Of a DNA stretch of 64,000 nucleotides, positions 10,889 to 38,783 are shown in pieces (the first letter of the stretch is position 1; every line of letters begins with the position of its first letter). Source of the DNA: an uncultured candidatus Porisulfidus sp. (GTDB taxonomy: Bacteria > Pseudomonadota > Gammaproteobacteria > Poriferisulfidales > Oxydemutatoraceae). A program made the position numbers and the translations under genes. Location: assembly GCA_963693105.1 (NCBI GenBank), contig OY843752.1:23315-87314 (forward strand), in the 5' to 3' direction. The notes under the pieces are model-generated. The model had not been told where the DNA came from and made no database searches. It was given only the letters and a program-made list of their open reading frames with translations.

Positions 10889-10907
10889 AACCGGGACTGA
10901 TTCAATC

Positions 10908-15203: not shown

Positions 15204-15661
15204 CGGCCCCAACCCATTGCAGCGCCCTGCTCGCGGCCATGGTGGCCATGGCCATGACGACGGCGGTTTCCACCGCCGACGACCACCGGATGCCCGATTT
15301 GCCCGCGGCCAAAGGCGAGCGTTGCGTCGAGCCGACCGAAGTCATGCGCCGGCGCCATGCGGAATTCATCCTGCACCAGCGCGACGAAACGGTTCACCGC
15401 GGAATCCGCACGCAAAAACACCGCTTTGTGAACTGCATTGATTGCCACGTGCAGCGCAACGCCGCCGGCGTCTGGCCCCGGCACACCGACGACGACCACT
15501 TCTGCTCGGTCTGCCACCTTTATACGAGCGTTGCCATTGACTGCTTCCAGTGCCACGCCGACCGACCGCACGAAGCCTACCCCGGCGGCGGCAAGTCCGC
15601 GCACCGAAGCGACCGCAGCCGTCTGGGCATGAGCGACCTGCACCTGGAGCGGCTGCGCTGA
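15200..15661 (+). CDS. dsrJ: DsrJ (periplasmic triheme cytochrome c)
   Basis: Three CxxCH motifs (CIDCH, CSVCH, CFQCH). ATGA overlap with dsrL. Confidence 0.85.
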   Translation: MTAPTHCSALLAAMVAMAMTTAVSTADDHRMPDLPAAKGERCVEPTEVMRRRHAEFILHQRDETVHRGIRTQKHRFVNCIDCHVQRNAAGVWPRHTDDDHFCSVCHLYTSVAIDCFQCHADRPHEAYPGGGKSAHRSDRSRLGMSDLHLERLR

Positions 15662-15662
15662 C

Positions 15663-16412: not shown

Positions 16413-16414
16413 GC

Positions 16415-17638
16415 ATGCAGCCCGTTCGCTACCGCGCCCTGGACGCCGACAGCGCCGGCTTCTTCGGCCTTCTGTTCGGCTTCGCGTTGTTCGCACTCGC
16501 CGGTGTCGGCGCCGCCTGGTACATGGAGCACCAGGGACACCACGTGACCGGCATGAGCAACCAGGTGGTCTGGGGCGTGCCGCACGTGTTCGCGATTTTC
16601 CTGATTGTCGCGGCTTCCGGCGCGCTCAACGTCGCCTCCATCGCGTCGGTGTTCGGCAAACTCGACTACAAGCCGCTGGCGCGGCTGTCCGCCATCCTCG
16701 CCATCGCGCTGCTGGTCGGCGGACTGGCCATTCTGGTGCTCGATCTGGGGCGCCCCGACCGCCTGATCGTCGCCATGACCTACTACAATTTCAAATCCAT
16801 CTTCGCGTGGAATATTTTTCTCTATGTCGGCTTCCTGTTCATCGTCGCGGCTTATCTGTGGATGATGTTTGAACGCCGGATGGCGCCGTACGCCGACACC
16901 GTCGGCCTCGCCGCTTTCCTGTGGCGCCTCGTGCTGACGACCGGAACCGGCTCCATCTTCGGCTTTCTGGTGGCGCGCCAGGCGTACGACGCCGCGCTGA
17001 TGGCGCCGATGTTCGTCATCATGTCGTTCTCCTACGGTCTCGCCGTGTTCATCCTCGTGCTGATGGCCGCCAGCAATCTCGCGCGGCGGCCTCTCGGCGA
17101 TGTCATTTTGCTGCGGCTGAAAAACCTGCTCGGCGTGTTCGTCGCCGCGGTGCTGTATTTCGTGATCGCCTTCAATCTGACCAACCTCTACGCGGCTGAA
17201 CACCACGGCATAGAGGATTTCATCTTGAGAAGCGGCGGCATTTACCCCTTCCTGTTCTGGGCGGTGCAGGTCGGCGCCGGCAGCCTGCTGCCGCTGCTGC
17301 TGTTTTACGCGCCGCCGTTGTCGCGTTCGCGCGCGGCAGCGGCGAGCGGCTGCGTGCTGGTCGTCATCGGCGCTTTCGCGCAACTCTATGTCATCATCAT
17401 CGGCGGGCAGGCTTATCCGCTGGTGATGTTTCCGGGCATGGAGGAGAGCAGCAGTTTCTTCGACGGCGTCATCGCCGAATACACCCCGAGCCTGCCGGAA
17501 CTGGCGCTGGGAGTGGGCGGCGTCGCGCTGTCGCTGGCCTTGCTGGTGTTCGCCCTCGCCGTCCTCGATTTTCTGCCCGAAGACCTGTCCGACCGCCGCT
17601 TTTCCGCCCAGTCCGCCGCCGCACCGGCGGCGGACTGA
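16415..17638 (+). CDS. dsrP: DsrP (NrfD/PsrC-like integral membrane quinone-interacting subunit)
   Basis: ATG 2 nt after the dsrO stop. About 10 TM helices. The listed ORF (from 15875) over-extends in the same frame. Confidence 0.85.
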   Translation: MQPVRYRALDADSAGFFGLLFGFALFALAGVGAAWYMEHQGHHVTGMSNQVVWGVPHVFAIFLIVAASGALNVASIASVFGKLDYKPLARLSAILAIALLVGGLAILVLDLGRPDRLIVAMTYYNFKSIFAWNIFLYVGFLFIVAAYLWMMFERRMAPYADTVGLAAFLWRLVLTTGTGSIFGFLVARQAYDAALMAPMFVIMSFSYGLAVFILVLMAASNLARRPLGDVILLRLKNLLGVFVAAVLYFVIAFNLTNLYAAEHHGIEDFILRSGGIYPFLFWAVQVGAGSLLPLLLFYAPPLSRSRAAAASGCVLVVIGAFAQLYVIIIGGQAYPLVMFPGMEESSSFFDGVIAEYTPSLPELALGVGGVALSLALLVFALAVLDFLPEDLSDRRFSAQSAAAPAAD

Positions 17639-17657
17639 ACCCCCCTGCCCGCGCCCG

Positions 17658-19037
17658 ATGCCGCAGTTGCTTGTCAGCGCAACCCATAAATCATCCGGCA
17701 AAACCGTCATCTGCACCGGCCTGTGCGCCGGCTTGAAAGCACGCGGCGTCGAAGTCCGCGCTTTCAAGAAAGGCCCCGACTACATTGACCCGCAGTGGCT
17801 GGCGTACGCTTGCGGGCATCCCTGCTACAACCTCGATTTCAACACGCAATCACCGGGCGAAATCAGCGCCATGGCCGCCGCGCGCGCGGCGCCGCCCGAC
17901 GGTTGCAGCCTGATCGAGGCCAACAAGGGGCTTTACGACGGCGTCGCCGCCGACGGCAGCGACAGCAACGCCGCGCTCGCCAGACTGCTCGGCCTGCCCG
18001 TGGTGCTGGTCGTGGATTGCGAAGGCATGACGCGCGGCATCGCCCCGCTGCTGCAGGGCTACGCGGCTTTCGACACCCAGGTCGCACTGGCCGGCGTAAT
18101 CCTGAACAAGGTCGGCGGCGAACGCCACCGCGCCAAATTGACCGCCGCGGTCGAGAACCACACCGACTTGCCGGTGCTGGGCGCGGTCATGCGCGACCCG
18201 CGCCTGGAGCTGCCGGAAAGACACATCGGCCTGGTGCCGTCCGCCGAAATGGATGGCGCCATGCGCAAAATAGACGACATGCGCGAGGCCGTCACCGCGC
18301 AGGTGGATCTGGAGCGGCTGCTGCGGGCCGTCTCCGGACCCGGACCGGCGCCGGTCGCGGCCGGCGGCGCCGGGCACTCGCCGTCCGGCGGCGGCCAACT
18401 CAGGCTGGGCGTTTTCAAGGACCGCGCTTTTACTTTTTATTATCCCGACGACCTCGAAGACCTCGAACGCTGCGGCGCCGAACTGGTGTTCGTGGACGGC
18501 CTGCATGACACGCGCCTGCCGCCGGTGGACGGTTTGTTCATCGGCGGCGGCTTTCCCGAGACCCGGGCCACGGCGCTTGAAGCCAACGCCGAACTGCGCG
18601 GCGAAGTCGCGCGCGCGATCAACGGCGGCCTGCCGGCCTACGCAGAATGCGGCGGCCTGATGTATTTGTCGCGCAGCATCACCTGGCGGGGGCGCCGCCA
18701 TGAAATGTGCGGCGTCCTCGCCGCCGACACCGAGATGTGCGACCGCCCGCAAGGCCGCGGCTACGTCGAGTTCAGCGAAACCGCGCAAATGCCGTGGCCC
18801 GCGGTGGAAGGCGAGGCGAAGACGCGCCGCGCCCACGAGTTTCACTATTCGCGCCTGGTCAACGCCGCCCCCTTCGACACCGCCTACGCGATTTCACGCG
18901 GCGACGGCCTCGGCGACGGCAGCGACGGCATCGTCCACAAAAACCTGCTGGCGAGTTATTTGCACCGGCGCGCCACCGGCAACGGCCGCTGGACGCGGCG
19001 CTTCACCGGCTTTATCCGGCGTCAACGCGGCCTTTAA
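17658..19037 (+). CDS. dsrN: DsrN (cobyrinic acid a,c-diamide synthase homologue; siroheme amidase)
   Basis: CbiA/CobB-like ATPase N-terminus 'SGKTVICTGL' plus a glutamine amidotransferase C-terminal domain. Last gene of the dsr block. Confidence 0.8.
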   Translation: MPQLLVSATHKSSGKTVICTGLCAGLKARGVEVRAFKKGPDYIDPQWLAYACGHPCYNLDFNTQSPGEISAMAAARAAPPDGCSLIEANKGLYDGVAADGSDSNAALARLLGLPVVLVVDCEGMTRGIAPLLQGYAAFDTQVALAGVILNKVGGERHRAKLTAAVENHTDLPVLGAVMRDPRLELPERHIGLVPSAEMDGAMRKIDDMREAVTAQVDLERLLRAVSGPGPAPVAAGGAGHSPSGGGQLRLGVFKDRAFTFYYPDDLEDLERCGAELVFVDGLHDTRLPPVDGLFIGGGFPETRATALEANAELRGEVARAINGGLPAYAECGGLMYLSRSITWRGRRHEMCGVLAADTEMCDRPQGRGYVEFSETAQMPWPAVEGEAKTRRAHEFHYSRLVNAAPFDTAYAISRGDGLGDGSDGIVHKNLLASYLHRRATGNGRWTRRFTGFIRRQRGL

Positions 19038-19103
19038 CCCGCACCCCGTCCGGAAAAGACGAAGCCGGAGAACGCGGGAAAATCATTGAATTCCCCGCCA
19101 TGG

Positions 19104-28341: not shown

Positions 28342-29049
28342 TCATTTCAATATCTCCGTCAATTGCCTTACGGCCCTTTCCAGATTCTCATACAAAAGCG
28401 GTTTATAATATTTTCCCCTGTGAATCTCCTGCTTCACTTTTCTCTCACCTTCCAATAAGGTGATAATCTCAATCTTCACATCTTCAAAAAAAGACATCAG
28501 TGTATGCGTCGAGAAACTGCCCAATGTTACCTCGCTCAACTTGGAATAATCACCACCGAGTTGGCTTTCAAGCTGCACCAGTGCAAACTTCAATGCCGGA
28601 AATTGAGTTTTCAACAACCATGCATCAAAAAGTATACGTTTGAACATTGCATTTTCGGCATAGGCTTTGCACTCTATGGATAAGAGAAATTCATCTCTTT
28701 CATAAACACTGACATCTTGACTTATTTTGTAATTAATTTCTTGAAGATGATCTTTTAAGTAGTTTCTGACTTCCTCATTGGAGAGGTTCTCTACGTATTT
28801 GCGATTGATGGGAACCATGTATTTCCCTCTCGAGAAAATCAAATCATCAGGCTCTTTGCCCAGTTTTAGCCATGCTGCCATAACAAGTTTTTGAGTAATA
28901 TCCTCGACCAGTTTCCCCTTTCCCTGCCTTAGCATCCCTCCTGGCGCTCTGGTCTTTTGTCCCTGAGATTCTTCCCACATATTCTGAACGGTCTGCTTAT
29001 ATGCCTCCACTATGCCATTCAATATCTCCCTGTAACTATGATTCACCAT
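28342..29049 (-). CDS. Putative Type II restriction endonuclease (PD-ExK)
   Basis: 'YERDEFLLSIECKAY' D...E-x-K core. AT-rich. Stop/start abuts the upstream methyltransferase on the same strand. Confidence 0.5.
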   Translation of the reverse strand: MVNHSYREILNGIVEAYKQTVQNMWEESQGQKTRAPGGMLRQGKGKLVEDITQKLVMAAWLKLGKEPDDLIFSRGKYMVPINRKYVENLSNEEVRNYLKDHLQEINYKISQDVSVYERDEFLLSIECKAYAENAMFKRILFDAWLLKTQFPALKFALVQLESQLGGDYSKLSEVTLGSFSTHTLMSFFEDVKIEIITLLEGERKVKQEIHRGKYYKPLLYENLERAVRQLTEILK

Positions 29050-29052
29050 GAC

Positions 29053-30264
29053 TCAAAGTAGAATGCCTTTCAGGCGCTCCTCGGATTTCTCGCAATACTC
29101 TCTGGATATGTCAATTCCGAGATAATGCCTTCCCGTCATCTTGGAAACGGCGCAAGTCGTTCCGACGCCCGCAAACGGATCCAGAACCACGTCTTCGCGA
29201 TAACTGAACAGTTGAAGTACGCGCCGCGCTAGCTCCTCCGGAAACATCGCGGGGTGGCCGAATTTTTTCATCCTGCGCTCCGGCGCAATCGCCCACTTGC
29301 CGTAAACCCACTTTTTGAAATCATCGCCGACGATGTCTATTTTTTCCCGATCGCCGGCCTTCTTGAGAGAACCCTTGCAGAAAACCTCGATAAATTCCCA
29401 TGAGTATTTGAGATACGGGTTGCTGGGACTCTTCCAACTGCCCCACGCCGTGTACTTGCAATTGTAATTGTTTTTCTCCCACACAATTTCGCCTTTCCAG
29501 ATCATCTTGCGATTGATAAAGTAATTGCCGATGATGTGATGGCTGGGAATATAGTCTGAATAAAGCGGCTGGATATTGACCACGATCCTGCCGCCGTATT
29601 TCAACACACGGATGCACTCATCAAATACGGCAAACAATTTGTCGAAATAACTCTGCCAATAATGGTCGTCCTGCGCCTGATCACCGTACTCCAGCCCGAA
29701 GTTGTACGGCGGGGAAGTGAACACCAAGTCCACGCAATTGTCCGGCAATTTCTTCAGCTCCTCCGCACTGTCGCCACAGAGTATTCTGTCAAGAAACCCG
29801 GGTGGCAACTCATTGTTCTCTTCACAAAATTCGTTGTTTCTTGCGTAATAATACTTGCCCCGGTTCTCTTCTTTTTTTGCCCGGTTCTTTACCTTCCGCT
29901 CTTCGTTATAGCCCACAAAACGCCGTTTGCCGGAATGAAGACCGTAACTGCCGATGGATTCGATTTCCTCACAAACCTGATGCAACAGCGAAGGAGGCTC
30001 TCCGCAGATTTCATGCACTGCGGCTCTCATCGCAACCGTGTCAATCTCCCGTAGCCGGATATGAACCGTTTTCCCTCTCGCAATAATCTGCACCTCATCA
30101 GATCGAAAGCGGCTGTTGAAATCATCAATCTTCCCGGAAACATCCGCCGTAACCGGAGATGGAACAGCGAATGAGAGTTCTTTATAGGACGGTGTTTCTT
30201 CTTGCTGCATTGAATTGAGCGGCTGGCAGGTAACTGCCGCATCCCCTCTGTGGATTCTACACAA
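29053..30264 (-). CDS. DNA methyltransferase, beta-class amino-MTase (N4-cytosine or N6-adenine)
   Basis: Motif IV 'DLVFTSPPY' precedes motif I 'VLDPFAGVGTT' (beta permutation). AT-rich island. The true start may be the internal Met about 17 codons in. Confidence 0.75.
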   Translation of the reverse strand: MCRIHRGDAAVTCQPLNSMQQEETPSYKELSFAVPSPVTADVSGKIDDFNSRFRSDEVQIIARGKTVHIRLREIDTVAMRAAVHEICGEPPSLLHQVCEEIESIGSYGLHSGKRRFVGYNEERKVKNRAKKEENRGKYYYARNNEFCEENNELPPGFLDRILCGDSAEELKKLPDNCVDLVFTSPPYNFGLEYGDQAQDDHYWQSYFDKLFAVFDECIRVLKYGGRIVVNIQPLYSDYIPSHHIIGNYFINRKMIWKGEIVWEKNNYNCKYTAWGSWKSPSNPYLKYSWEFIEVFCKGSLKKAGDREKIDIVGDDFKKWVYGKWAIAPERRMKKFGHPAMFPEELARRVLQLFSYREDVVLDPFAGVGTTCAVSKMTGRHYLGIDISREYCEKSEERLKGILL

Positions 30265-30268: not shown

Positions 30269-31927
30269 TCAGTATTGCAGTATCAGAAACACCGCCAGCG
30301 CGGCGACGATGGCCATGATAAAAACCGACAACCTCGCGGAATCGCGCCGCGCCAGCGCGGAAAGTTGCAGCCACAGCATCCGGCCGGGGTCGCATCCGCC
30401 GCGCGCCCTTCGCAGCGCCGCGGCCAGCGGCGCTGCGAGCGGGCAAAGCAGCGACGGCAGCCTGCGGTAAAACCAGTCCACATCCAGGCTGATGGTTAAC
30501 GTGCGTTTCAGCAGCGGCAGCATCAGGAAAAAGGCCAGCGCCGACAACAGCAGCAGTTCAAGTTGCGCCGCAACATGCGGGCCGGTATAAGGCGCATAAT
30601 CAACCGGGTACGGCAACAGACCGTACAACAGCGACGGAAAGACACCGATCGCCAGGCACAGCACCGCGAAGAAAATCATCGCCAACTGCATGTTGACCGG
30701 CGGATCATCCGGCTCGTCGCCGGAGGGTTTCCTGCGAAAAAAGACAAACCACGGAAACTTGATTCCGGCGTGCAGAAAAACGCCGGCGGACGCCGCCACC
30801 AGCAAAAACCACGTCCACATCATCGCGGCGCCGTGCGCGGCCTCGCCAATCAGGGCCTTCGACACAAAGCCGGAGGTCAGCGGCATCGCCGAAATCGAGA
30901 CCGCGCCGATGACGCCGCAAATCGTCGTCACCTTCATGGTCGCGTACAGCCCCCCCAGTTCGCTGCATTTTCTGCGTCCGCTCATGTAAAGAACGCTGCC
31001 AGCCGACATCAGCAGCAACGCCTTGTAGATAATGTGCGCGGAAGCGTGGGCGGCGGCGCCGTTGACGGCCAGTTCGGTGCCGATGCCCGCACCCACCACC
31101 ATGAAGCCGACCTGATTGACGATGCTGTAAGCGAGAATGCGGCGCATGTCGTTTTCAAGCAGCGCATAGACAATGCCGTAAAAAATCATGTACAACCCGA
31201 TCGGCACCAGAATATCGGTGCCCGCAAACACCACCAGCAATGCAAACACCGCCGATTTCGTCGTGAACGCGGACAAAAACACCGTGCCGCCGGGGCTGGC
31301 CTCGGGATAGGCGTCGGCCACCCACGCCGACAGCGGCGGCGCGCCGGCGTTCAGCAAAACGCCCGCCAGAATCATCCACTCGTACAACGCATCCGGCGCG
31401 ACCAGCCGCAGGGTGGCGTCGCCGCTCTCGCCGACCAGCCCGGCGATGCCGTAGAGCAAAACCACGCCGCCCAGCGCGTGCAGCAGCATGTAACGCCTGC
31501 CCGCCGCCGCCGACGCCGGCGTCGCCGCCGAAAAAATAATCAATGTCGAGGCAAGCGCCATCAATTCCCAGAAAATGAAAAACGTGATGAAGTCACCGCA
31601 CAGCGAGACCATGACCGCGCTGCCGGCACACAGCGAGGCGCCGGCGAGTTCGCTCTTCTTCGCCTGCCTCATCACAAACATCATGCCGCCGAGAGCCATC
31701 ACCGAGAACGTGACCGCGAACAACCGCCCCAGCGGCGTCACCTGCAGCGGCGTGATGTCGTAGTCCATGAAACGCAAGTGCAGCGCGGCGCCCTCCGGCA
31801 GCAGCGCCGCAAACAGCAGCGTCAGCAACGGCGGCAGCAACAGCCACCTTTTCGCGCCGCCGACAAAACACACCAGCGGCGCCGCCGCCAACATGACGAG
31901 GCCGGGAGGGAAAATCCAGTCCATCAC
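30269..31927 (-). CDS. Mrp/complex-I antiporter-like subunit (MrpD/NuoL/M/N family), third of three paralogues
   Basis: Proton-pumping antiporter signature helices ('TKSAVFALLVVFAG', broken TM helices). Terminal gene of the cluster. Confidence 0.75.
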   Translation of the reverse strand: MMDWIFPPGLVMLAAAPLVCFVGGAKRWLLLPPLLTLLFAALLPEGAALHLRFMDYDITPLQVTPLGRLFAVTFSVMALGGMMFVMRQAKKSELAGASLCAGSAVMVSLCGDFITFFIFWELMALASTLIIFSAATPASAAAGRRYMLLHALGGVVLLYGIAGLVGESGDATLRLVAPDALYEWMILAGVLLNAGAPPLSAWVADAYPEASPGGTVFLSAFTTKSAVFALLVVFAGTDILVPIGLYMIFYGIVYALLENDMRRILAYSIVNQVGFMVVGAGIGTELAVNGAAAHASAHIIYKALLLMSAGSVLYMSGRRKCSELGGLYATMKVTTICGVIGAVSISAMPLTSGFVSKALIGEAAHGAAMMWTWFLLVAASAGVFLHAGIKFPWFVFFRRKPSGDEPDDPPVNMQLAMIFFAVLCLAIGVFPSLLYGLLPYPVDYAPYTGPHVAAQLELLLLSALAFFLMLPLLKRTLTISLDVDWFYRRLPSLLCPLAAPLAAALRRARGGCDPGRMLWLQLSALARRDSARLSVFIMAIVAALAVFLILQY

Positions 31928-31933
31928 CGCCGC

Positions 31934-32212
31934 TTACCCGTCGCCGCGCCCGTCATAATAGTCGTCCTTTCTCTTGAGGAACCAGCCCAGCGCCAGTGCC
32001 ACGACGATCAGCACGACACAGCTGGCGAAACCGAACCAGGCATAAAAGCCGAAACCAAAATCGGAGAAGCCGCCGACCAGAAACTCCAGCAGAACAATCA
32101 GGACGACACCTGCTCCAATCGCAGGCAGCGGAGGCTTTAATCCCACGATGTATCTCCCACCCCAATCGCGGGCAGCGGAGGTTTTAATCCCACGATGTAT
32201 CTCCCACCCCAA
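31934..32212 (-). pseudogene. Small membrane-protein gene between two MrpD-like genes, apparently frame-disrupted by the 47-bp tandem repeat
   Basis: The listed 92-aa ORF (TTG start inside the repeat) has a hydrophobic C-terminal two-thirds. A short ATG-initiated ORF 'MNWKPPLPAIGVGDTSWD*' overlaps the upstream gene stop (ATGA) and shares 'KPPLPAIG' with it in another frame. Confidence 0.3.
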
Positions 32213-32231
32213 TCGCGGGCAGCGGAGGTTT
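32124..32231. repeat. Tandem direct repeat, 47-bp unit x 2.3 copies (1 mismatch)
   Basis: Copy 1 at 32124-32170 and copy 2 at 32171-32217, 'ggcagcggagg(c/t)tttaatcccacgatgtatctcccaccccaatcgcg'. Partial third copy at 32218-32231. Confidence 0.85.
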
Positions 32232-32236
32232 CCAGT

Positions 32237-33724
32237 TCATGGCGCGTCTCCGGCGTTGCCGGCGGCGAAACCCGGAGCCCCGGCGATGAACCCGGCAATG
32301 CTGTCCACCGCGAAAAACAGCACGGCGCACATCAGCGCCGGCAACAGCATCGCAATCAGCATCGCCGCCGGCGCCTCGTTGCGCGCCACGGGAGCCGGCG
32401 CGGCCTGCGTGAAGAAAGCGCGGTAAATCACCGGCACGAGGTAGGCCGCGCTCAATACGCTGCCCGCGACCAGCACCGCCGCGGGAAGATACCCGCCGAC
32501 CGCGACCGAACCTTCGAGCAGAAACCACTTGCTGCTGAAACCGGCCAGCGGCGGCAAACCGATGATTACAAGCGAGCCGACGGTGAACAATCCCATCGTC
32601 CACGGCATGGTGCGGCCGATTCCGCCCAGTTCATCCAGCCGGGTTTTGCCGCTCGCCGTCTGAATAGCGCCCGCCGCGAAAAACAGCGTGATCTTGCCGA
32701 AGCCGTGCGCCAGCAGATGCAGCACCGCGCCCAGCAGCGCCGCCGGTTTCAGCAGCGCGGCGCCGAGAAGAATATAAGAAAGCTGGCTGACGGTCGAATA
32801 GGCGAGCAGTTTCTTCAGACTGCTCTGCCGCAGCGCGATGATCGAGGCGGCGATGATGGTAAAAGAGGCGATGTACACAAGCCATTCACCGGCGCCGGCG
32901 CCGGCCAGCAGATCAACGCCGAAAATATAGAGGATGACCTTGACTATCGTGAAGACACCGGCCTTGACCACGGCAACCGCGTGCAGCAGCGCGCTGACCG
33001 GCACCGGCGCGACCATCGCCCGCGGCAGCCAGCAGTGCAGCGGCATCACCGCGGCTTTCGAGGCGCCGAAGACGACCAGCAGCAGCAGCCATTTGACCTG
33101 CGCGTCCTCAAGGTGTCCGTCCAGTATGCCGCCGGACACGAAATCCAACGTCCCCGCGGCGTGATAAATCCACACCAGCGCGGCCAGCAGCAACACCGTC
33201 GAGGAACCGACCAGAATGCCCAGATAAATCCTGCCCGCCGACAGCGCCTCGCGGCTCTTGCCGTGCGTCACCAGCGGATACGTGCAAAGCGTCAGCACCT
33301 CGTAGAATATGAACAGCGTCAGCAGGTTGCCGGCGAACGCGACCGCCAGGGCGCAGCCGATGGCCAGGTTGTAATACACCAGAAACGACGTCATCCCGGG
33401 CACGCGGTTCTGGTAGAGATACGCCAGCGAATACAGCATGCTGACCGGCCACAGCAAACACACCAGGCCGGCGAAAATCAGGCCCACCGGCTCCGGCTCG
33501 AATGCGATGCCGGCGCCGGGCACGATTTCCGTCAGTTGCAGCGTCACCGGCGCGTCCGCCAGCATCACCAGCGCCGCCAGTGAAACAAAAGGCGCCAGCA
33601 GGTTCAGCGTGTCCCTCACCACGGGCATGCCGTGGAACAGCACCGTCAGCGCGGCCAGCACGAAAGGACTCGCCATGCACGCAATCAGCAGGGTCTCGTT
33701 CGTCATTGTGATCATCATCGTCAT
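32237..33724 (-). CDS. Mrp antiporter-like subunit D/NuoN family, paralogue 2
   Basis: Polytopic, conserved 'LAYS(T/S)V(S/A)Q' region. The overlapping plus/minus Arg-rich ORFs are rejected. Confidence 0.75.
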   Translation of the reverse strand: MTMMITMTNETLLIACMASPFVLAALTVLFHGMPVVRDTLNLLAPFVSLAALVMLADAPVTLQLTEIVPGAGIAFEPEPVGLIFAGLVCLLWPVSMLYSLAYLYQNRVPGMTSFLVYYNLAIGCALAVAFAGNLLTLFIFYEVLTLCTYPLVTHGKSREALSAGRIYLGILVGSSTVLLLAALVWIYHAAGTLDFVSGGILDGHLEDAQVKWLLLLVVFGASKAAVMPLHCWLPRAMVAPVPVSALLHAVAVVKAGVFTIVKVILYIFGVDLLAGAGAGEWLVYIASFTIIAASIIALRQSSLKKLLAYSTVSQLSYILLGAALLKPAALLGAVLHLLAHGFGKITLFFAAGAIQTASGKTRLDELGGIGRTMPWTMGLFTVGSLVIIGLPPLAGFSSKWFLLEGSVAVGGYLPAAVLVAGSVLSAAYLVPVIYRAFFTQAAPAPVARNEAPAAMLIAMLLPALMCAVLFFAVDSIAGFIAGAPGFAAGNAGDAP

Positions 33725-33727
33725 CGG

Positions 33728-35197
33728 TCAGCGCAGCAGCGTCTCGGCGATGTCGAGACAGGCTCGCGTCAACCACGACGGATTGACGCCGACAAAAAAA
33801 TTCACGGCGATGAGCGCCCAGGTCGTCAACAGCATCGCCGGCGGCGCTTCGCCGGCCTCGCCGGCCTCGCTCTGCCGGAAATAAGCGGCCTCCACCAGCC
33901 GCCAGCCGTAAGCCACACTCAACAGCGAACCGGCGAGGATGACAAACGCCAGCAGCCACAGGTTCATCTCCAGCACGGCGCTGACCAGATACCACTTGCT
34001 GACAAAACCCGAGGTCAGCGGTATGCCGACCAGGCTGACGACGCCGGCGACGATGGCCGCCGCCGTCCACGGCATGCGCTTCGACAGCCCGGCAAGGTCG
34101 GAAAGGCTGCAACCGCCCGCGCGGTAAGCGATGCAGCCGAGCGCCATGAACAACGAGACCTTGATGATCGCGTGGTTGAAAACGTGTATCAGGCCGGCGG
34201 CGACGCCGGCCTGCGTGGCCAGGCCGATGCCGAGCGCGATGTAGCCGATTTGCGCGACGCTGGAATAAGCCATCATGCGCTTGACCTGGTGCTGGAAGAA
34301 GGCGAGGCCGGAGCCGGCCACAATGGCGGCGGGCGCCAGCACCAGCATGATGTCCGGCAGCGCCGCCGGGAACGAGGCGGCGTCGAAGACCTCGAACAAA
34401 AGGCGAATCAATACGTAGAGCGCGACTTTCGTGCTGGTGCCGGAAAGAACCGCGGCGATGGCCGACGGCGCGTGGGCGTAGGCGTTCGGCAGCCACAGGT
34501 GCAGCGGGAAAAGCGCGGCCTTCAGCAACAGCCCGACGCCGATGAAACCGAGCGCGGCGAGAACGGCGGGGGAGCCCAGCAGCGGTTGCAGCCGCGGCGC
34601 CATGTCCGACAGGTTCAACGTGCCGGTCACCAGATAGAGATAACCGATGCCGAGAAGAAACAGCGCCGCGCCGGTGGTCCCCATCAACAGGTAGCGGTAG
34701 GCCGCGGTCAGCGCGCGCGGCGCGCGCGCCGACGCCACCAGCGCGTAGCCCGCGATCGAGGCCATTTCCAGGAACACGAAGATATTGAACAAGTCGTCGG
34801 TCATGGCGACGCCGAAAAAACCGGACTGGCAAATCAGCAGCGCGCTGTAAACCGGGCCAAGGCGGCGCCCGCAAAGCTCCTTGTCGAAACTGCGCCGGGC
34901 GTAAACAACGCCGCCCAGAAAGACCGTGCTCAACATCAGCACCATCAACGCATTGATCTGCGCCACCTTGTAGGCAATCCCCCACGGCGGCGCCCAGCCG
35001 CCGATGGCGTACTCCAGCACCAGGCCCTCGCCGGTGCGCACAAACAGCGCGACACTGAACACAAACGCGGCGACGCTGACAACCAGCACCATCCGCCACA
35101 CCAGGCGGTCGTCTCGCACCAGCAGGCCAAGCGCCGCGCCGAGCAACGGCAGCACCACCAGCAGAACCGGCAATTGGAGAAGCAGCGCGTCGTTCAT
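33728..35197 (-). CDS. Mrp antiporter-like subunit D/NuoM family, paralogue 1
   Basis: 'MMAYSSVAQIGYIALG', 'HLWLPNAY' motifs typical of MrpD/NuoM. Confidence 0.75.
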   Translation of the reverse strand: MNDALLLQLPVLLVVLPLLGAALGLLVRDDRLVWRMVLVVSVAAFVFSVALFVRTGEGLVLEYAIGGWAPPWGIAYKVAQINALMVLMLSTVFLGGVVYARRSFDKELCGRRLGPVYSALLICQSGFFGVAMTDDLFNIFVFLEMASIAGYALVASARAPRALTAAYRYLLMGTTGAALFLLGIGYLYLVTGTLNLSDMAPRLQPLLGSPAVLAALGFIGVGLLLKAALFPLHLWLPNAYAHAPSAIAAVLSGTSTKVALYVLIRLLFEVFDAASFPAALPDIMLVLAPAAIVAGSGLAFFQHQVKRMMAYSSVAQIGYIALGIGLATQAGVAAGLIHVFNHAIIKVSLFMALGCIAYRAGGCSLSDLAGLSKRMPWTAAAIVAGVVSLVGIPLTSGFVSKWYLVSAVLEMNLWLLAFVILAGSLLSVAYGWRLVEAAYFRQSEAGEAGEAPPAMLLTTWALIAVNFFVGVNPSWLTRACLDIAETLLR

Positions 35198-35209
35198 CGG
35201 CCCGGCCGT

Positions 35210-35572
35210 TCAGTCGTCCTCGTATTCGAGGTCGCCGATCAGGCGCTCGTCGAGACTGCCGTAAACCCGGCTGATGCGGATGGCAAGCGCCAGTCCCAGC
35301 GCGGTGGAGGCGACGGCGACGACTATCGCCGTCAGAATCAGCACGTGCGGCAGCGGGTTGGAATACACCGTGACTTCGGGCGTCAGAATCGGCGCGCTGC
35401 CGCCGCCGACCTTGCCCATCAATATAAAGAAGATGAAAATCGAAACCTGGAACAGGTTCAGCCCGATCAGTTTCTTCACCAGATTGTCGTAAGCGATCAT
35501 GATGTAGATGCCCGTCATCATCAGGAAGACGACGGCGAGATGGTGGTAGCCCTGCAGCAGATTCTCGATCAT
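35210..35572 (-). CDS. mrpC: Mrp subunit C (NuoK-like)
   Basis: 120 aa, 3 TM, 'LTAIVVAVASTALGLALAIRI' NuoK/MnhC-like. Confidence 0.75.
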   Translation of the reverse strand: MIENLLQGYHHLAVVFLMMTGIYIMIAYDNLVKKLIGLNLFQVSIFIFFILMGKVGGGSAPILTPEVTVYSNPLPHVLILTAIVVAVASTALGLALAIRISRVYGSLDERLIGDLEYEDD

Positions 35573-36039
35573 GCCGAGTCGCTCGCGTCCATCAACAGGT
35601 AAAAAATCAGCATGACGACGCCGACGATGGTGACGCCGATGCCGAGTTCGATGGCGAAGATGCCGATGTGCTGCCCCGACAGGGGCTGCTGCGCGAGCGC
35701 CGCATAGTCGAGGAAAGCACCGCCCCTCAGCAGGGCGGCGACGCCGGTCAGCGCGTAGAGCAAGACGCCAAGCGCGGACAGCACCTCGGCCGTGCGCCGC
35801 GACAAAACCGCCGACGCCTTCTCGACGCCGTAGATCAGCGCGTACAGAACCAGGCCGACGGAGAAAATGACGCCGGCCTGAAAACCGCCGCCCGGACCGA
35901 AATCGCCGTGGAACTGCACATACAGCGCGTAGAGCAACGTCGTCGGCACCAGCGTGTGGGCGGTTTCGCGCAGAATCGGGTTTTGGGTGATGAAGGCCAG
36001 GTCACTCCTCCCCGCGCTGTTCAAACAAGCCCAGCACAA
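35569..36039 (-). CDS. mrpB: Mrp subunit B (MnhB domain)
   Basis: 'HGDFGPGGGFQAGVIFS' MnhB signature. The true start may lie downstream of the listed one. Confidence 0.7.
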   Translation of the reverse strand: MCWACLNSAGRSDLAFITQNPILRETAHTLVPTTLLYALYVQFHGDFGPGGGFQAGVIFSVGLVLYALIYGVEKASAVLSRRTAEVLSALGVLLYALTGVAALLRGGAFLDYAALAQQPLSGQHIGIFAIELGIGVTIVGVVMLIFYLLMDASDSA

Positions 36040-36541
36040 TCAGGACGCCGACGCCGGCGGTGAAAATCACGCAGACCTCCCCCAGCGTGTCGAGACCCCG
36101 GTAACTCGCCAGCACCGACGTGACCACGTTGGGCGGCCCGACTTCGGCGGCCGAATGTTCAAGGTAGTGGCGCGCGACATGATCGTGCAGCGCCAGCGAC
36201 GCGTCGCCCAGCCAGGGGAAATCCAGCATCGAGTAGAACAGCAGCCAGCCGGTGGCCGCCGCCAACGTCAGCCCCAGCACCTTGCGCGACGCCGCGTAGG
36301 CGTACTGTTTGCCGGTGGCGGCGATGGTCGTCAGAAAGAAAATCGTGCTGATGCCGGCGCCGACGGCGGCCTCAGTGAAGGCGACATCGGGCGCGTCCAG
36401 CGACAGGAACAGCGCCGCCGTCAGCAGGCTCGACATGCCCGCCAGAAAAGCCGCGGAAAACAGGTTGTCGGTTCTGGCAATGATGACCGCCGCGACGGCC
36501 GACAGCGACAACAACGCGCATCCAAGCAGTTGGCCGCTCAT
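36002..36541 (-). CDS. MrpB-like N-terminal module (DUF4040/MbhD-E-like small membrane subunit)
   Basis: Hydrophobic 4-TM protein. Start chosen at the Met forming an ATGA overlap with the mrpG stop; the listed ORF extends to 36652. Confidence 0.5.
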   Translation of the reverse strand: MSGQLLGCALLSLSAVAAVIIARTDNLFSAAFLAGMSSLLTAALFLSLDAPDVAFTEAAVGAGISTIFFLTTIAATGKQYAYAASRKVLGLTLAAATGWLLFYSMLDFPWLGDASLALHDHVARHYLEHSAAEVGPPNVVTSVLASYRGLDTLGEVCVIFTAGVGVLIVLGLFEQRGEE

Positions 36542-36828
36542 GGTTCCGGGTAACTTTGCAGATAGGTTTTGAAAATCGCATGGATCGCCGCCGGCGCGGT
36601 AATCAGCAAAAACACGATGATCAGCGTAATCTTCAGCGCGACCATTCCCCACCCCGATTGCAGCGCCAGCGCGATGAGGATTTGCAGCGTGCCGAACACA
36701 TCAATCAGCCCGGCGGCGTGCGCGCGCGTCGTGAAATCCGGCATCCGCAGCATGCCGACGGCGCCGATCAGGATAAAGGCGCAGCCTGAAACCGCCAGCA
36801 CCCAGGCGGCGGCGTCAACCAGGTTCAT
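36538..36828 (-). CDS. mrpG: Mrp subunit G
   Basis: 96 aa, 3 TM, 'LRMPDFTTRAHAAG' PhaG/MnhG-like. Confidence 0.65.
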   Translation of the reverse strand: MNLVDAAAWVLAVSGCAFILIGAVGMLRMPDFTTRAHAAGLIDVFGTLQILIALALQSGWGMVALKITLIIVFLLITAPAAIHAIFKTYLQSYPEP

Positions 36829-37150
36829 CGCCGCCCTCCCGCAGGGCCGGCCACCTCAGCCGGCGCTTGCTGAACAATCTCAAAATGGCGATGGTCGCGA
36901 CAAAATTCACCAGCGCGTAGAGCAGCGCGATGTCCACGAAAACATCGCGCCGCGACAGCAGCCCGATGCCGGCAATCAGCGCAATCGAGAGCGTTCCGAA
37001 AACGTTGATTGCAAGCACCTGGTCAAACAGGCGCCGCGCGCGCGCGGTGTGTATCAACACCAGCAACATCGCCAGCAGCAGCACGCCCAGTACCATGCCC
37101 AGTATCATGTCCAATGTCATGTCCAACATCCCGTCCGCGCCATCCGTCAC
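36815..37150 (-). CDS. mrpF: Mrp subunit F
   Basis: About 110 aa, 3 TM small subunit in the expected position. Confidence 0.6.
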   Translation of the reverse strand: MTDGADGMLDMTLDMILGMVLGVLLLAMLLVLIHTARARRLFDQVLAINVFGTLSIALIAGIGLLSRRDVFVDIALLYALVNFVATIAILRLFSKRRLRWPALREGGDEPG

Positions 37151-37632
37151 CCCAGCCGCGAGACCTGCTTTGCGAATTCGCCCTTGCGCGCTCTCTCCGC
37201 CGCCTCTTCCGTCAGCGCGTGCACCCGGATTGTGTCGCCCCGGAAATCGGCGCTGATGGTGCCGGGCGTCAGCGTGATCGAGTTGGCCTGGACGACGCGC
37301 AACAGACCGTCGTCGCGCACCGCCTCGATGTCAATAAAACGCGGGCTGATGGGCAGTTTCGGGTTCAGAATTCTGCGCGCCACGTCGCAGTTGGCGGCGA
37401 CAATCCGCCACAACAGCCAGACCGCGTAAAACGGCAGCCTCAGATAAAAGCCGGGGCGGTGCTGGCCGGCGCCGATGACCCCCATGCGCGACGACAGCGC
37501 CGTCACCAGCGCCGCGCTGGCCGCCCCCAGCGAGACCATCAGCGCAGCGTAATGGCCGGAGATGGCGAGCCAGAAGCCCAGCAACAGCAGGAAAACAAAA
37601 AAGCGTCTGGGATGGTTTGCGGATGCGTTCAT
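37147..37632 (-). CDS. mrpE: Mrp subunit E
   Basis: 161 aa MnhE-like. Start forms an ATGA overlap with the hemY stop. Confidence 0.65.
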   Translation of the reverse strand: MNASANHPRRFFVFLLLLGFWLAISGHYAALMVSLGAASAALVTALSSRMGVIGAGQHRPGFYLRLPFYAVWLLWRIVAANCDVARRILNPKLPISPRFIDIEAVRDDGLLRVVQANSITLTPGTISADFRGDTIRVHALTEEAAERARKGEFAKQVSRLG

Positions 37633-38783
37633 TTTATTTGTGAGGGCTCATCATACAGGTTCTCTACAAGCCACGCGTCGTAACCGGGCTTGACCGCAAG
37701 ACTCTTCTTCAAAAAGCCGCGGCCACGATCCGGCTCGCCCGACTGCTTGTACAGCCGCGCCATGCACAACAGCAAGGCGGCATCGTCAGGCCGCCGCGCC
37801 AGCCACCGCTGCACATTCGGGATTCTGCGCGACAAATCACCGCCGCGCAATATACCGTACTGGCGGATTGCATCCTCGCCCCAGCCGTCCTCGATGATTT
37901 TTTCCAGATGCCGGGCGGCATCACCGGCGGCGCCCGCCCGCTCCAGCAGGCCCGCGTATTCAAGCAAAAGCGCCCGTCCGGGCACAAAACCCGGGCGCCG
38001 CAGGGCGTCTTCCCACGTCCGCCGCAGTTGCGCCGCATCACCGGCGGCGGCGGCACGCGCGAGCAGCGACGCGGTCGCGCGCGTCTCAATGCGGCGGCAA
38101 AATGCCGGCCTGTGCGACAGTGCGCGGCGCGATGGCGGCTGCAACAAGGTCCCGGCGGCCTGCTCCATGCAGTGCTCATCGCGCTCGCACAACCCGGCCA
38201 GCAATTCAACGGCGCGCACATTGCCGGGCTGTTTGCCGAGCAGTTCGATCAACTGGCGCACGGCCTGCGTGGGCAGTTCGCCGCGCGCCGCCAGTTCGGC
38301 CCCGACCATCGCCTCCGCATGGCCGGCGGGACGCCACTGTGCGGCCAGTTCCAACACCTTGCGCGCGCCGTCGTTGTCGCCGACACGCAGCGCGCAGCGC
38401 GCCGCCAGCAGGCAGGCGGCGCGCTGCGCCGACGTGCCGGGCGTTTTCGCAATCTCGAGCAACGGCTTGTACGCTTCGGCGTAATCGCCTGCGACATACG
38501 CCAACAGCGCGTCGGTCAGGCGCCGCGAGGTCCGCCTTTTGTAATAACTCTGGTGCCCGGCGAACAGGCGTCCGGGCAGCCGCCACAACGAAACCAGCAG
38601 CCGCAACAGCAGCCCCAGCGCCAGCCACGCGGCGACCAGCGCCGTCACCACGACCCACAAACCGGCCTCAACGCGCCATTCGCCGACCGTGACGGCGACA
38701 TCGCCCGGATACTGCAACGACAGCAGCACAATCGCGGTAACACCCGCGAAAACCAACGTCAACGCCAACAGGATTCGCTTCAT
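37629..38783 (-). CDS. hemY: HemY-like protoheme IX biogenesis protein (N-terminal TM pair plus TPR)
   Basis: Last gene of hemCDXY. TPR-like repeats. Confidence 0.75.
   Translation of the reverse strand: MKRILLALTLVFAGVTAIVLLSLQYPGDVAVTVGEWRVEAGLWVVVTALVAAWLALGLLLRLLVSLWRLPGRLFAGHQSYYKRRTSRRLTDALLAYVAGDYAEAYKPLLEIAKTPGTSAQRAACLLAARCALRVGDNDGARKVLELAAQWRPAGHAEAMVGAELAARGELPTQAVRQLIELLGKQPGNVRAVELLAGLCERDEHCMEQAAGTLLQPPSRRALSHRPAFCRRIETRATASLLARAAAAGDAAQLRRTWEDALRRPGFVPGRALLLEYAGLLERAGAAGDAARHLEKIIEDGWGEDAIRQYGILRGGDLSRRIPNVQRWLARRPDDAALLLCMARLYKQSGEPDRGRGFLKKSLAVKPGYDAWLVENLYDEPSQIK

What the first reader, a model, noticed from the sequence alone, without database searches (positions are those of the whole stretch)
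30269..37632. Mbh-ordered Mrp-like module (E-F-G-B'-B-C-D-D-D) fused translationally to hemY, with three D-type subunits and no redox module
The gene order mrpE, mrpF, mrpG, DUF4040-like B', mrpB, mrpC followed by three paralogous MrpD/NuoLMN-type antiporter subunits is the order found in archaeal membrane-bound hydrogenase (mbhA-H) and Mbx operons, not the classical mrpABCDEFG order. Yet no hydrogenase or Nuo catalytic genes are adjacent. The first gene overlaps the hemY stop (ATGA), which places the whole module in the hemCDXY transcript. A triple-antiporter (L/M/N-like) proton-translocating arm without an attached Q/N-module next to heme biosynthesis genes is unusual. It could be a standalone cation/proton antiporter, or the membrane arm of a complex whose peripheral subunits are encoded elsewhere.
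Basis: partly seen in the sequence, partly recalled or inferred. Interest (0 to 1): 0.55.

Follow-up and report, generated by a model that had tools for sequence, protein, structure and literature searches.

The report
Stand-alone group-3 Mrp antiporter operon
This is a real but fairly ordinary ten-gene operon for a multi-subunit sodium(cation)/proton antiporter of the "group 3" Mrp type, found in hundreds of bacterial species; it has three proton-channel subunits and an unannotated small subunit, and it works without any attached redox enzyme.

Summary
The genes are there, at the stated coordinates. On the minus strand they run mrpE-F-G-B'(MbhD+MbhE)-B-C, then three Proton_antipo_M proteins.

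The mrpE start overlaps the hemY stop (ATGA). No hydrogenase or Nuo module lies in the window.

The arrangement is not rare:
- E-F-G-B'-B-C-D1-D2-sm-D3 has the same order in about 59 of 80 sampled loci, drawn from at least 585 species of Alpha-, Beta- and Gammaproteobacteria and Gemmatimonadota.
- The flanking genes differ from locus to locus.
- Hem genes are adjacent only in this organism's close relatives.

This is the published "group 3" Mrp class, whose archaeal example is Pyrococcus furiosus mrpEFGBB'CD. Genome papers have already noted the multi-D bacterial form.

D1 resembles MrpD/MbsH. D2 has a NuoL/MrpA-like core. D3 models as an MrpA N-domain with a lateral helix.

The best reading is a PMF-driven cation/H+ antiporter with three proton channels. 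Four features are worth a specialist's look:
- MrpF Asp is replaced by Asn.
- The MrpC acidic/His position is Gln.
- D3 has Asn in place of the TM7 Lys.
- The sm subunit matches no described family.

Verdict: a new member of a known kind, of low to moderate interest.

The parts
37629..38783 (-). hemY (TPR membrane protein of the hemCDXY operon). It is context only; its stop codon overlaps the mrpE start.
   Evidence: PF07219 HemY_N at 3e-17 and TIGR00540 at 157 bits against a cut-off of 142. The ATGA overlap is read.
37147..37632 (-). MrpE (161 aa)
   Evidence: PF01899 at 1e-28. The ITLTPGT proline is conserved in 59/59 loci.
36815..37150 (-). MrpF (111 aa). Asn49 sits where other Mrp, Mbh and Mbs F subunits have Asp.
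   Evidence: PF04066 at 2e-13. In the alignments to 6cfw_B, 6u8y_B, 6z16_F and 7qru_F, Asp pairs with Asn49. Asn is present in 59/59 loci.
36538..36828 (-). MrpG (96 aa)
   Evidence: PF03334 at 1e-21; TIGR01300 at 63.7 bits against a cut-off of 63.1. The conserved Pro79 is present in 57/57 loci.
36002..36541 (-). MrpB' (179 aa). This is the free-standing equivalent of the MrpA C-terminal domain, i.e. MbhD+MbhE. Its start overlaps the mrpG stop.
   Evidence: PF13244 plus PF20501; NF009159 at 165 bits against a cut-off of 141. It aligns to MbsD/E, MbhD/E and MrpA residues about 610-800. The TEAAVGAG and DTLGE carboxylates are conserved.
35569..36039 (-). MrpB (151-156 aa). The start is uncertain: 36024 as called on the sister contig, or 36039.
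   Evidence: PF04039 at 5e-26; NF009162 at 158 bits against a cut-off of 120. Gene call.
35210..35572 (-). MrpC (NuoK-like, 120 aa). Gln42 sits where MbsG has Glu and MbhG has Asp.
   Evidence: PF00420 at 1e-20; NF005621 at 131 bits against a cut-off of 126. Alignments. Gln is present in 66/66 loci.
33728..35197 (-). D1 (489 aa), an antiporter-like subunit of the MrpD/MbsH/MbhH type with the full set of channel residues.
   Evidence: PF00361 at 4e-59. Best solved relatives are 6u8y_H (232 bits), 6cfw_H and the MrpD chains. E144, K226, K257, K346 and K401 are conserved.
32237..33724 (-). D2 (495 aa), an antiporter-like subunit with a NuoL/ND5/MrpA-like 14-TM core and no lateral helix.
   Evidence: PF00361 at 8e-56. 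Best solved relatives are MbhH, NuoL 8e9g_L, NdhF and MrpA. E142, K223, K254, K344 and K399 are conserved.
32115..32231 (.). A 47-nt tandem repeat (2.5 copies) between the D2 stop and the sm start. Copy number varies between strains.
   Evidence: TRF score 220 with 97% matches. The 99%-identical strain L081 has 1.5 copies and the 80% relative L082 has none.
31934..32146 (-). sm (70 aa), a conserved small two-TM protein and candidate tenth subunit. It has no family annotation.
   Evidence: It lies immediately upstream of D3 in 79/80 loci and is called as a gene on the sister contigs. It has at least 3790 homologue clusters, all named 'hypothetical' and none with a Pfam domain. It has no Pfam, NCBIfam or PDB match. 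The AF2 model is a two-helix hairpin.
30269..31927 (-). D3 (551-552 aa), an MrpA-N/NuoL-like antiporter-like subunit with TM15, a lateral helix and TM16. An invariant Asn193 replaces the TM7 Lys.
   Evidence: NF009310 at 587 bits against a cut-off of 564. The AF2 model has pLDDT 82, with helices at 449-472, 490-508, 514-527 and 532-551. The best Foldseek hit is MrpA 7qru_A with TMq 0.80. N193, E121, K224, K302 and K357 are each present in 80/80 loci.

Best explanation
The region encodes a self-contained, ten-subunit Mrp-type (CPA3) cation/proton antiporter of the 'group 3' (Mbh-ordered, split-MrpA) class.

By homology to the solved Mrp, MBH and MBS structures, the parts would be arranged as follows:
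- MrpE, G, F, B and B' (the MrpA C-domain) together with MrpC form the cation-conducting end.
- D1 (MrpD-like), D2 (NuoL-core-like) and D3 (MrpA-N-like) line up next to MrpC as three consecutive proton channels.
- D3 has its own TM15, lateral helix and TM16, which clamp back over its neighbour.
- The small two-TM protein encoded between D2 and D3 is probably an extra structural subunit at that interface.

Protons flowing inward through the three channels down the proton-motive force would drive a cation, most likely Na+, outward at the E/F/G/B end. With three proton channels instead of the two in classical Mrp, a higher H+ per cation ratio is expected.

What is shown: gene content, gene order, conservation, channel residues, and the absence of a redox partner.

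What is inferred: assembly order, ion identity, direction, stoichiometry, and co-transcription with hemCDXY.
For: - Every Mrp subunit family is present, at E-values from 1e-13 to 1e-59, and four products pass NCBIfam equivalog cut-offs.
- The order E-F-G-B'-B-C-D matches P. furiosus stand-alone mrpEFGBB'CD. That complex has no redox module, and deleting it affects Na+-coupled pH homeostasis (PMC8415708).
- The ten-gene order is conserved in about 59 of 80 loci from four major lineages.
- Clustering all flanking ORFs found no neighbour family in more than 11 of 80 loci, and none was redox-related.
- D1 and D2 keep Glu-TM5, Lys-TM7, Lys-TM8, the TM11 His/His/Lys and Lys-TM12. D3 keeps all of these except Lys-TM7.
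- The D3 model fits MrpA best, including the lateral helix.
- B' keeps the Asp/Glu pair (DTLGE) and the Mbh-type TEAA glutamate. MrpG Pro and MrpE Pro are invariant.
- Genes overlap or lie within 12 nt of each other from hemX to D3, apart from the repeat-containing D2-sm spacer.
Against: - I found no biochemical data for any member of this three-D family in the searchable literature.
- The MrpF aspartate is Asn in all 59 loci. That aspartate is called invariant, and a D35L mutant is inactive in A. flavithermus Mrp (PMC7419157).
- The acidic residue of MbsG/MbhG at the NuoK Glu position is Gln in all 66 loci. The cation path therefore differs from every solved relative, and the ion or its route could differ too.
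- D3 lacks the TM7 lysine in 80/80 loci.
- Six informative loci, with a seventh cut at a contig edge, carry only C-D1-D2-sm-D3, with no E/F/G/B'/B within the 3.6-10 kb held on either side. This shows that the proton-channel half can exist genetically apart from the 'sodium' half.
Confidence: 0.72

Rival explanations
1. The cluster is the membrane arm of a redox-driven, complex-I-like, MBH- or MBX-like pump. Its peripheral catalytic subunits would be encoded elsewhere in the genome.
For: There are three antiporter-like subunits plus NuoK- and NuoJ-like subunits, as in the complex I P-module. The best sequence relatives of D1, B', C and F are MBS/MBH chains.
Against: - No NuoH/MbhM-type connecting subunit and no MbhJKLN/NuoBCDI homologue is present in the operon, in the window, or as a conserved neighbour in 80 loci. 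In every known member of that superfamily the linker subunit is encoded with the arm.
- A stand-alone precedent exists in P. furiosus (PMC8415708).
- The only redox cluster in the window is rDsr, about 11 kb away and unrelated.
Confidence: 0.07
2. The complex is an Mrp-like transporter with altered chemistry. It could move a different ion (K+, Ca2+, NH4+), use a different H+/ion ratio, or act as a gated proton conduit rather than a classical Na+/H+ exchanger.
For: - Key carboxylates are neutralised throughout the family: MrpF Asp to Asn in 59/59 loci and the MrpC position to Gln in 66/66.
- D3 has Asn in place of Lys-TM7 in 80/80 loci.
- Short forms lacking E/F/G/B'/B exist, some of them next to a CitMHS/NhaD-like transporter.
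- Mrp members with K+ or Ca2+ specificity are documented (PMC5703873).
Against: - Asn and Gln can still line a Na+ path.
- The other cation-path residues are strictly conserved: the B' Glu57, Asp151 and Glu155, the MrpG Pro and the MrpE Pro.
- No accessory enzyme such as a carbonic-anhydrase-like partner is linked.
Confidence: 0.17
3. The link to heme genes is functional: the antiporter serves heme or cytochrome biogenesis, having been recruited into the hemCDXY operon.
For: The hemY stop and mrpE start overlap as ATGA. Hem adjacency is kept in L081 (99% identity), L082 (80%, after hemD) and L054 (Ca. Oxydemutatoraceae).
Against: None of the other roughly 55 complete loci has hem genes upstream. 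In L082, hemX and hemY are absent between hemD and mrpE. In L054 a 30-nt gap replaces the overlap. The pattern looks like lineage-specific synteny.
Confidence: 0.04

Closest known systems
Pyrococcus furiosus stand-alone group 3 Mrp (mrpEFGBB'CD, PF1147-53; PMC8415708)
   Same: It has the same gene order E-F-G-B-B'-C-D. The MrpA C-domain is encoded as a separate small protein. No redox module is present. The small subunits have Mbh/Mbs-like sequences.
   Different: The archaeal operon has one antiporter-like subunit and is described as lacking the MrpA-N 'energy-input' module. This operon has three such subunits, one of them MrpA-N-like with a lateral helix, plus the conserved small sm protein. 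Here the MrpF Asp is Asn and the MrpC acidic position is Gln.
Classical group 1/2 Mrp antiporters (B. pseudofirmus 7qru, A. flavithermus 6z16, Dietzia 7d3u)
   Same: All seven subunit families are shared. The channel residues of the large subunits are shared. The D...E pair of the MrpA C-domain and the MrpG and MrpE prolines are present. The D3 model superposes best on MrpA (TMq 0.80).
   Different: The order is EFGB'BCDD-sm-D rather than ABCDEFG. MrpA is split into D3 and B'. There is one extra antiporter-like subunit. The MrpA E687-type glutamate is shifted four residues, as in Mbh/Mbs. The MrpC His-x-x-His is absent. MrpF Asp is Asn.
Membrane arms of MBH (6cfw) and MBS (6u8y)
   Same: These give the highest-scoring solved relatives of D1 (MbsH), B' (MbsD/E, MbhD/E), C (MbsG) and F (MbhB/MbsB). 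The gene order mbhA-H is the same. Like D3, MbsH' carries TM15-16.
   Different: There are no MbhI/M or J/K/L/N homologues. There are three large subunits rather than one or two. MbhB/MbsB keep Asp and MbhG/MbsG keep Asp/Glu, where this family has Asn and Gln.
Complex I P-module (NuoL/M/N/K/J)
   Same: Both have three antiporter-like subunits in a row, with a NuoK-like and a NuoJ-like subunit. The distal subunit carries a lateral helix and a C-terminal anchor helix.
   Different: There are no NuoH or NuoA homologues and no Q or N modules. The cluster has additional MrpB/E/F/G subunits. The lateral helix is only about 38 residues long, enough to span roughly one neighbouring subunit.
Bacterial multi-D group 3 clusters noted in genome papers: Solemya velum symbiont 'MrpEFGBBCDD' (PMC4287430), Ca. 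Nitrospira alkalitolerans (PMC7784846) and Verruconatronum 'MrpEFGBCD1D2D3' (PMC13274419)
   Same: They are described with the same or nearly the same gene string. Like this window, which carries rDsr genes, the S. velum symbiont is a sulfur-oxidising gammaproteobacterium.
   Different: Those reports are annotations only. None mentions the small sm gene or the residue substitutions. I did not compare their sequences directly.

Membership tests
Mrp / CPA3 multisubunit cation:proton antiporter | One operon encodes homologues of all Mrp modules: MrpA-N, MrpA-C, B, C, D, E, F and G. | tested here: met
   Pfam and NCBIfam hits cover every module. D3 is assigned as MrpA-N-like by structure, and B' as MrpA-C by alignment.
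Mrp / CPA3 multisubunit cation:proton antiporter | The antiporter-like subunits have conserved proton-channel residues: Glu-TM5, Lys-TM7, Lys/His-TM8 and Lys-TM12. | tested here: met
   D1 and D2 have all of them. D3 has all except Lys-TM7, which is an invariant Asn193.
Mrp / CPA3 multisubunit cation:proton antiporter | MrpF carries a conserved aspartate (Af D35 / Bp D38) on the proposed Na+ path. | tested here: not met
   Asn49 aligns with the Asp of 6cfw_B, 6u8y_B, 6z16_F and 7qru_F. Asn is present in 59/59 family loci.
Mrp / CPA3 multisubunit cation:proton antiporter | The MrpA C-domain carries essential carboxylates (Af E706, D792, E796). | tested here: met
   The DTLGE pair is present in 59/59 loci. 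The third glutamate is present at the Mbh/Mbs-type position (TEAAVGAG) in 58 of 59 loci.
Mrp / CPA3 multisubunit cation:proton antiporter | Measured cation/H+ antiport activity. | not testable with these tools
   This needs vesicle assays or complementation of E. coli KNabc.
Group 3 Mrp (irregular order, no fused mrpA, one or more mrpD; PMC5703873, PMC8415708) | There is no full-length mrpA, MrpA-C is a separate gene, and the order is E-F-G-B-B'-C-D(n). | tested here: met
   Coordinates and family hits. The definition is quoted.
Group 1 / group 2 Mrp | The gene order is mrpA(B)CDEFG, with an MrpA of about 800-950 aa. | tested here: not met
   The largest product is 552 aa and the order is EFGB'BCDD-sm-D.
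MBH / MBS / MBX respiratory complexes | MbhM (NuoH-like) and MbhJ/K/L/N (NuoB/C/D/I-like) are encoded with the Mrp-like genes. | tested here: not met
   None lies within +/-10 kb. None appeared among the sampled ORFs in the rest of the window. None is a conserved neighbour in 80 loci.
Respiratory complex I (Nuo) | nuoA-N are present, including nuoH and the peripheral-arm genes. | tested here: not met
   Only L/M/N-, K- and J-like products are present. In some short-form loci a separate nuoLMN lies upstream, but other genes on the opposite strand separate it from the cluster.

The most novel reading that the evidence does not exclude
The three-D, ten-gene form is a functionally distinct and so far uncharacterised Mrp subclass: a free-standing complex-I-like L/M/N/K/J proton arm fused to a modified cation module. 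The modified module has MrpF Asp replaced by Asn and the MrpC acidic position replaced by Gln, and it includes a previously unrecognised small subunit. Its H+/ion stoichiometry or its ion specificity would differ from classical Mrp. The C-D1-D2-sm-D3 half could also operate as an independent module, as the short-form loci suggest.
Probability: 0.3. Interest if true: 0.55.

Novelty: new member of a known kind. Interest (0 to 1): 0.3.

Why it matters
As it stands, this finding mainly corrects an over-reading. The cluster is a widespread stand-alone antiporter that is already annotated. It is not an orphaned respiratory arm, and it is not a heme-linked oddity.

It has some residual value for bioenergetics. 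The family offers a natural complex with three antiporter-like subunits and no redox module. That could serve as a simple system for testing how proton channels are coupled over long range in complex I relatives.

The invariant Asn and Gln substitutions and the unannotated small subunit are concrete, testable differences from every solved Mrp, MBH or MBS structure.

Tried and rejected
- **Search for a conserved partner.** I ran all-against-all clustering of 2242 flanking ORFs from 80 loci. No family occurred in more than 11 loci and none was redox-related, so I dropped the hidden-partner idea.
- **Homology of the small sm protein to a known subunit (MbhI, NuoL TM15-16, others).**
  - Pfam and NCBIfam at E up to 10 gave only noise.
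  - A profile search of PDB sequences gave only chance hits, to TM6SF1 and ChRmine.
  - Foldseek with the two-helix model gave nothing below E = 5.
- **Identifying the organism.** Exact look-up of two other window proteins found nothing on record. Cluster member names were empty.
- **Literature search for mrpD3/mnhD3.** This returned only unrelated grant-number strings.
- **L006.** It looked like an sm-D3-only locus, but it contains 100-N runs roughly every 3.2 kb, so I set it aside as unreliable.
- **Terminator and promoter scans.** These gave no usable internal promoter or terminator between hemC and D3. The only convincing terminator lies between the algR-like gene and hemC. This is consensus matching only.
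- **Recent horizontal acquisition of the mrp genes.** I considered and rejected this. Their G+C (61-64%) matches the flanks, unlike the 49% G+C restriction-modification island just downstream.

Full report
**1. What is in the sequence**

Between 30269 and 37632, every real gene is on the minus strand. In order of transcription they are as follows.

| Gene | Coordinates | Length | Family evidence |
|---|---|---|---|
| MrpE | 37147-37632 | 161 aa | PF01899, 1e-28 |
| MrpF | 36815-37150 | 111 aa | PF04066, 2e-13 |
| MrpG | 36538-36828 | 96 aa | PF03334, 1e-21 |
| B' | 36002-36541 | 179 aa | PF13244 MbhD + PF20501 MbhE (the former DUF4040); NF009159 above cut-off |
| MrpB | 35569 to about 36024 | 151-156 aa | PF04039, 5e-26; NF009162 above cut-off |
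| MrpC | 35210-35572 | 120 aa | PF00420, 1e-20; NF005621 above cut-off |
| D1 | 33728-35197 | 489 aa | PF00361, 4e-59 |
| D2 | 32237-33724 | 495 aa | PF00361, 8e-56 |
| D3 | 30269-31927 | 552 aa | PF00361, 9e-40; NF009310, 587 bits against a cut-off of 564 |

The mrpE ATG overlaps the hemY TGA as ATGA. Most neighbouring genes overlap by 4-23 nt or are at most 12 nt apart.

**2.

The 310-nt space between D2 and D3 holds a 70-aa ORF at 31934-32146(-). It encodes two hydrophobic helices followed by a KRKDDYYD tail.

- It is called as a gene on two sister contigs.
- tblastn finds it directly upstream of D3 in 79 of 80 related loci.
- Full-length orthologues are about 80 aa. They share the motif HWLxRPxTIRxLW...HPHFxIDG.FGFxAWYGFxxC...LKRxDTYYD.
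- A profile search of the large protein collection found at least 3790 clusters. Every one that has a name is 'hypothetical protein', and none has a Pfam domain.
- Pfam, NCBIfam, PDB-sequence and Foldseek searches gave nothing meaningful.
- The AlphaFold model is a simple helical hairpin with pLDDT 73.

Its strict linkage and its stop-start abutment with D3 make it a probable additional subunit. That is an inference.

**3. How common the arrangement is**

Of these, 585 were confirmed, and 80 loci were fetched with 10-kb flanks.

I mapped all window proteins onto them by tblastn.

- E, F, B' and B were each detected in 59 loci, and G in 57, always in the order E-F-G-B'-B-C-D1-D2-sm-D3.
- These loci come from Alpha-, Beta- and Gammaproteobacteria and Gemmatimonadota. 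They include cultured Hydrogenophaga, Thalassotalea and Magnetospirillum.
- Most of the remaining loci are cut by contig ends.
- Clustering 2242 flanking ORFs found no family in more than 11 loci and nothing redox-related.

The cluster is therefore a self-contained, mobile-in-evolution operon.

**4. The heme neighbourhood**

Hem genes lie upstream only in three related loci:

- L081, the 99%-identical strain, with hemCDXY-mrp;
- L082, an 80% relative, with hemC-hemD-mrp and no hemX or hemY in between;
- L054, Ca. Oxydemutatoraceae (Chromatiales), with hemD...hemY, a 30-nt gap, then mrpE.

A strong terminator-like hairpin sits between the algR-like regulator and hemC, at 41455-41430. Nothing convincing lies between hemC and D3. 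One transcript from hemC to D3 is therefore plausible here, but this is inferred. Because the adjacency is absent from the other roughly 55 complete loci, it is lineage-specific synteny and not a clue to function.

**5. No redox module**

The gene list of the sister contig covers +/-10 kb. On one side it shows histidine kinase/LytTR regulator, hemCDXY and the mrp genes. On the other it shows a methyltransferase, a 96-aa ORF, recG, a RidA-like gene, spoT and rpoZ.

Pfam scans of further long ORFs across the window found argH, lysA-like, epimerase, ABC exporter, obg and pcnB genes, plus a reverse-Dsr cluster:

- dsrA at 6918-8204 and dsrB at 8225-9301;
- dsrK-, dsrL-, dsrP- and dsrN-like genes between 11.5 and 19 kb.

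There are no Nuo or [NiFe]-hydrogenase peripheral subunits and no NuoH/MbhM homologue. The Dsr genes mark the organism as a sulfur-oxidising gammaproteobacterium.

**6. What the three large subunits are**

They are 27-32% identical to each other, so they are ancient paralogues.

- **D1.** Against PDB sequences, D1 matches MbsH best (6u8y_H, 232 bits), then MbhH and the MrpD chains.
- **D2.** D2 matches MbhH, mycobacterial NuoL, NdhF and MrpA. It has a NuoL/MrpA-type core but ends after TM14.
- **D3.** D3 matches MbhH and MbsH'. Its AlphaFold model (pLDDT 82, pTM 0.85) adds TM15 at 449-472, two amphipathic helices at 490-508 and 514-527, and a terminal TM at 532-551. Its best Foldseek hit is MrpA of B. 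pseudofirmus (TMq 0.80 over 617 columns), followed by the 9a6h_A MrpA model, an alphaproteobacterial NuoL (9g9y_L), other MrpA chains and further NuoL chains.

The operon therefore does contain an MrpA-N-like 'energy-input' subunit (D3) and an MrpA-C equivalent (B'), encoded apart. It also has MrpD (D1) and one extra channel subunit (D2).

**7. Residue-level checks**

An alignment of D1, D2 and D3, together with column counts over the related loci, shows the following.

- D1 keeps E144, K226, K257, K346 and K401. D2 keeps E142, K223, K254, K344 and K399. These are the canonical Glu-TM5, Lys-TM7, Lys-TM8, TM11 Lys and Lys-TM12.
- D3 keeps E121, K224, K302 and K357 in 80/80 loci. At the Lys-TM7 position it has Asn193, also in 80/80 loci.
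- In the small subunits, the B' Asp151/Glu155 pair (DTLGE), the B' Glu57 (TEAAVGAG, as in MbhD/MbsD), the MrpG Pro79 and the MrpE Pro123 are essentially invariant.

Two positions differ from every solved relative.

- The MrpF aspartate is Asn49 here and in 59/59 loci. In A. flavithermus this residue (D35) is described as invariably conserved and is inactivating when mutated. It corresponds to D38 in B. pseudofirmus (PMC7419157, PMC9568556).
- At one MrpC position, MbsG has Glu and MbhG has Asp. There classical MrpC has Ser, and it has His at the next position and three residues further on. This family has Gln42 at that position in 66/66 loci.

**8. Mechanism**

By homology, the most likely function is PMF-driven extrusion of a monovalent cation by a stand-alone Mrp complex. 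Three serial proton channels (D1-D2-D3) would be braced by the D3 lateral helix and perhaps by sm. They would couple through MrpC/B' to the E/F/G/B cation module.

A third channel suggests a higher H+ per cation ratio than the roughly 2 assumed for classical Mrp (PMC7419157). That would help Na+ export against steep gradients in a marine sulfur oxidiser.

The ion, the stoichiometry and the assembly order are all inferences. The Asn and Gln substitutions and the D3 Asn193 are genuine reasons for caution. I give the altered-chemistry rival 0.17.

**9. Comparison with what is known**

- Reviews define 'group 3' Mrp as clusters with irregular order and no mrpA, sometimes with several mrpD genes. 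They cite P. furiosus stand-alone mrpEFGBB'CD as an example (PMC5703873, PMC8415708).
- The multi-D bacterial form has been written down as 'MrpEFGBBCDD' in the Solemya velum symbiont (PMC4287430).
- In Ca. Nitrospira alkalitolerans it is described as a group 3 Mrp followed by two NuoM/NuoL-like genes (PMC7784846).
- In Verruconatronum it appears as 'Mnh/MrpEFGBCD1D2D3' (PMC13274419).
- NCBIfam has dedicated models for several of the subunits.

I found no biochemical or structural study of this subclass in the searchable library. I found no mention of the sm gene or of the substitutions described above.

The window's cluster is therefore a new member of a known kind.

**10. Verdict**

- The 'unusual, possibly orphaned respiratory arm next to heme genes' framing is not supported.
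- Interest is low to moderate (0.3). The cluster is ordinary as a genomic feature, but the family is an uncharacterised natural complex of three antiporter-like subunits with specific, testable peculiarities.

Noticed in passing
window 32115-32231: A 47-nt tandem repeat (2.5 copies, 97% matches) lies between the D2 stop and the sm start. The 99%-identical strain (L081) has 1.5 copies. An 80% relative (L082) has none, and there the sm GTG start overlaps the D2 stop. The insertion leaves an 18-codon leftover ORF (MNWKPPLPAIGVGDTSWD*) coupled to D2. It also supplies a new GGGAGA-spaced GTG start at 32146. Copy number therefore varies between strains at a translation-initiation site.
   Followed up: partly
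window 28342-30264: A low-G+C island (49%, against about 63% in the flanks) sits directly after D3. It carries an N6/N4 DNA methyltransferase (29053-30264) and a 235-aa ORF with no family match (28342-29049), probably its restriction endonuclease. In the 99%-identical strain L081 a 672-bp deletion removes the second ORF and leaves an orphan methyltransferase.
   Followed up: partly
L009, L012, L013, L016, L065, L067 (and L021, at a contig edge): A short form of the cluster, C-D1-D2-sm-D3, has no E/F/G/B'/B within the 3.6-10 kb held on either side at tblastn E up to 1e-3. It occurs in one group of marine gammaproteobacterial or 'Legionellales'-labelled MAGs. In the two loci examined in detail (L012 and L016) the upstream genes are psd, PCuAC and Sco1. 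L016 also has three NuoL/M/N-like ORFs further upstream, and L012 has a CitMHS/NhaD-like transporter just upstream of C (a similar ORF lies upstream in L009). Whether the missing genes are elsewhere in those genomes is unknown.
   Followed up: partly
window about 6900-19100: There is a reverse dissimilatory sulfite reductase cluster. It comprises dsrA (6918-8204), dsrB (8225-9301), a 4Fe-4S dsrK-like gene (11512-13179), a dsrL-like gene (13230-15203), NrfD/dsrP-like (15875-17638) and dsrN-like (17658-19037). This indicates a sulfur-oxidising gammaproteobacterium.
   Followed up: no
window 36815-37150 (MrpF Asn49), 35210-35572 (MrpC Gln42), 30269-31927 (D3 Asn193): Three substitutions are invariant across the family at positions that are Asp, Asp/Glu (or Ser) and Lys in the solved Mrp, MBH and MBS structures: 59/59, 66/66 and 80/80 loci respectively. 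They may mark a functionally distinct subclass.
   Followed up: yes
window 1-2000: The first 2 kb of the window has a much lower G+C (42%) than the rest (about 60-68%). Its two long ORFs were not identified: 10-1479 gave no Pfam match, and 1483-2388 was not scanned.
   Followed up: no
L006: This MAG 'chromosome' locus carries 100-N runs roughly every 3.2 kb. It shows sm and D3 without the upstream genes, which is probably an assembly or masking artefact and not a true variant.
   Followed up: partly
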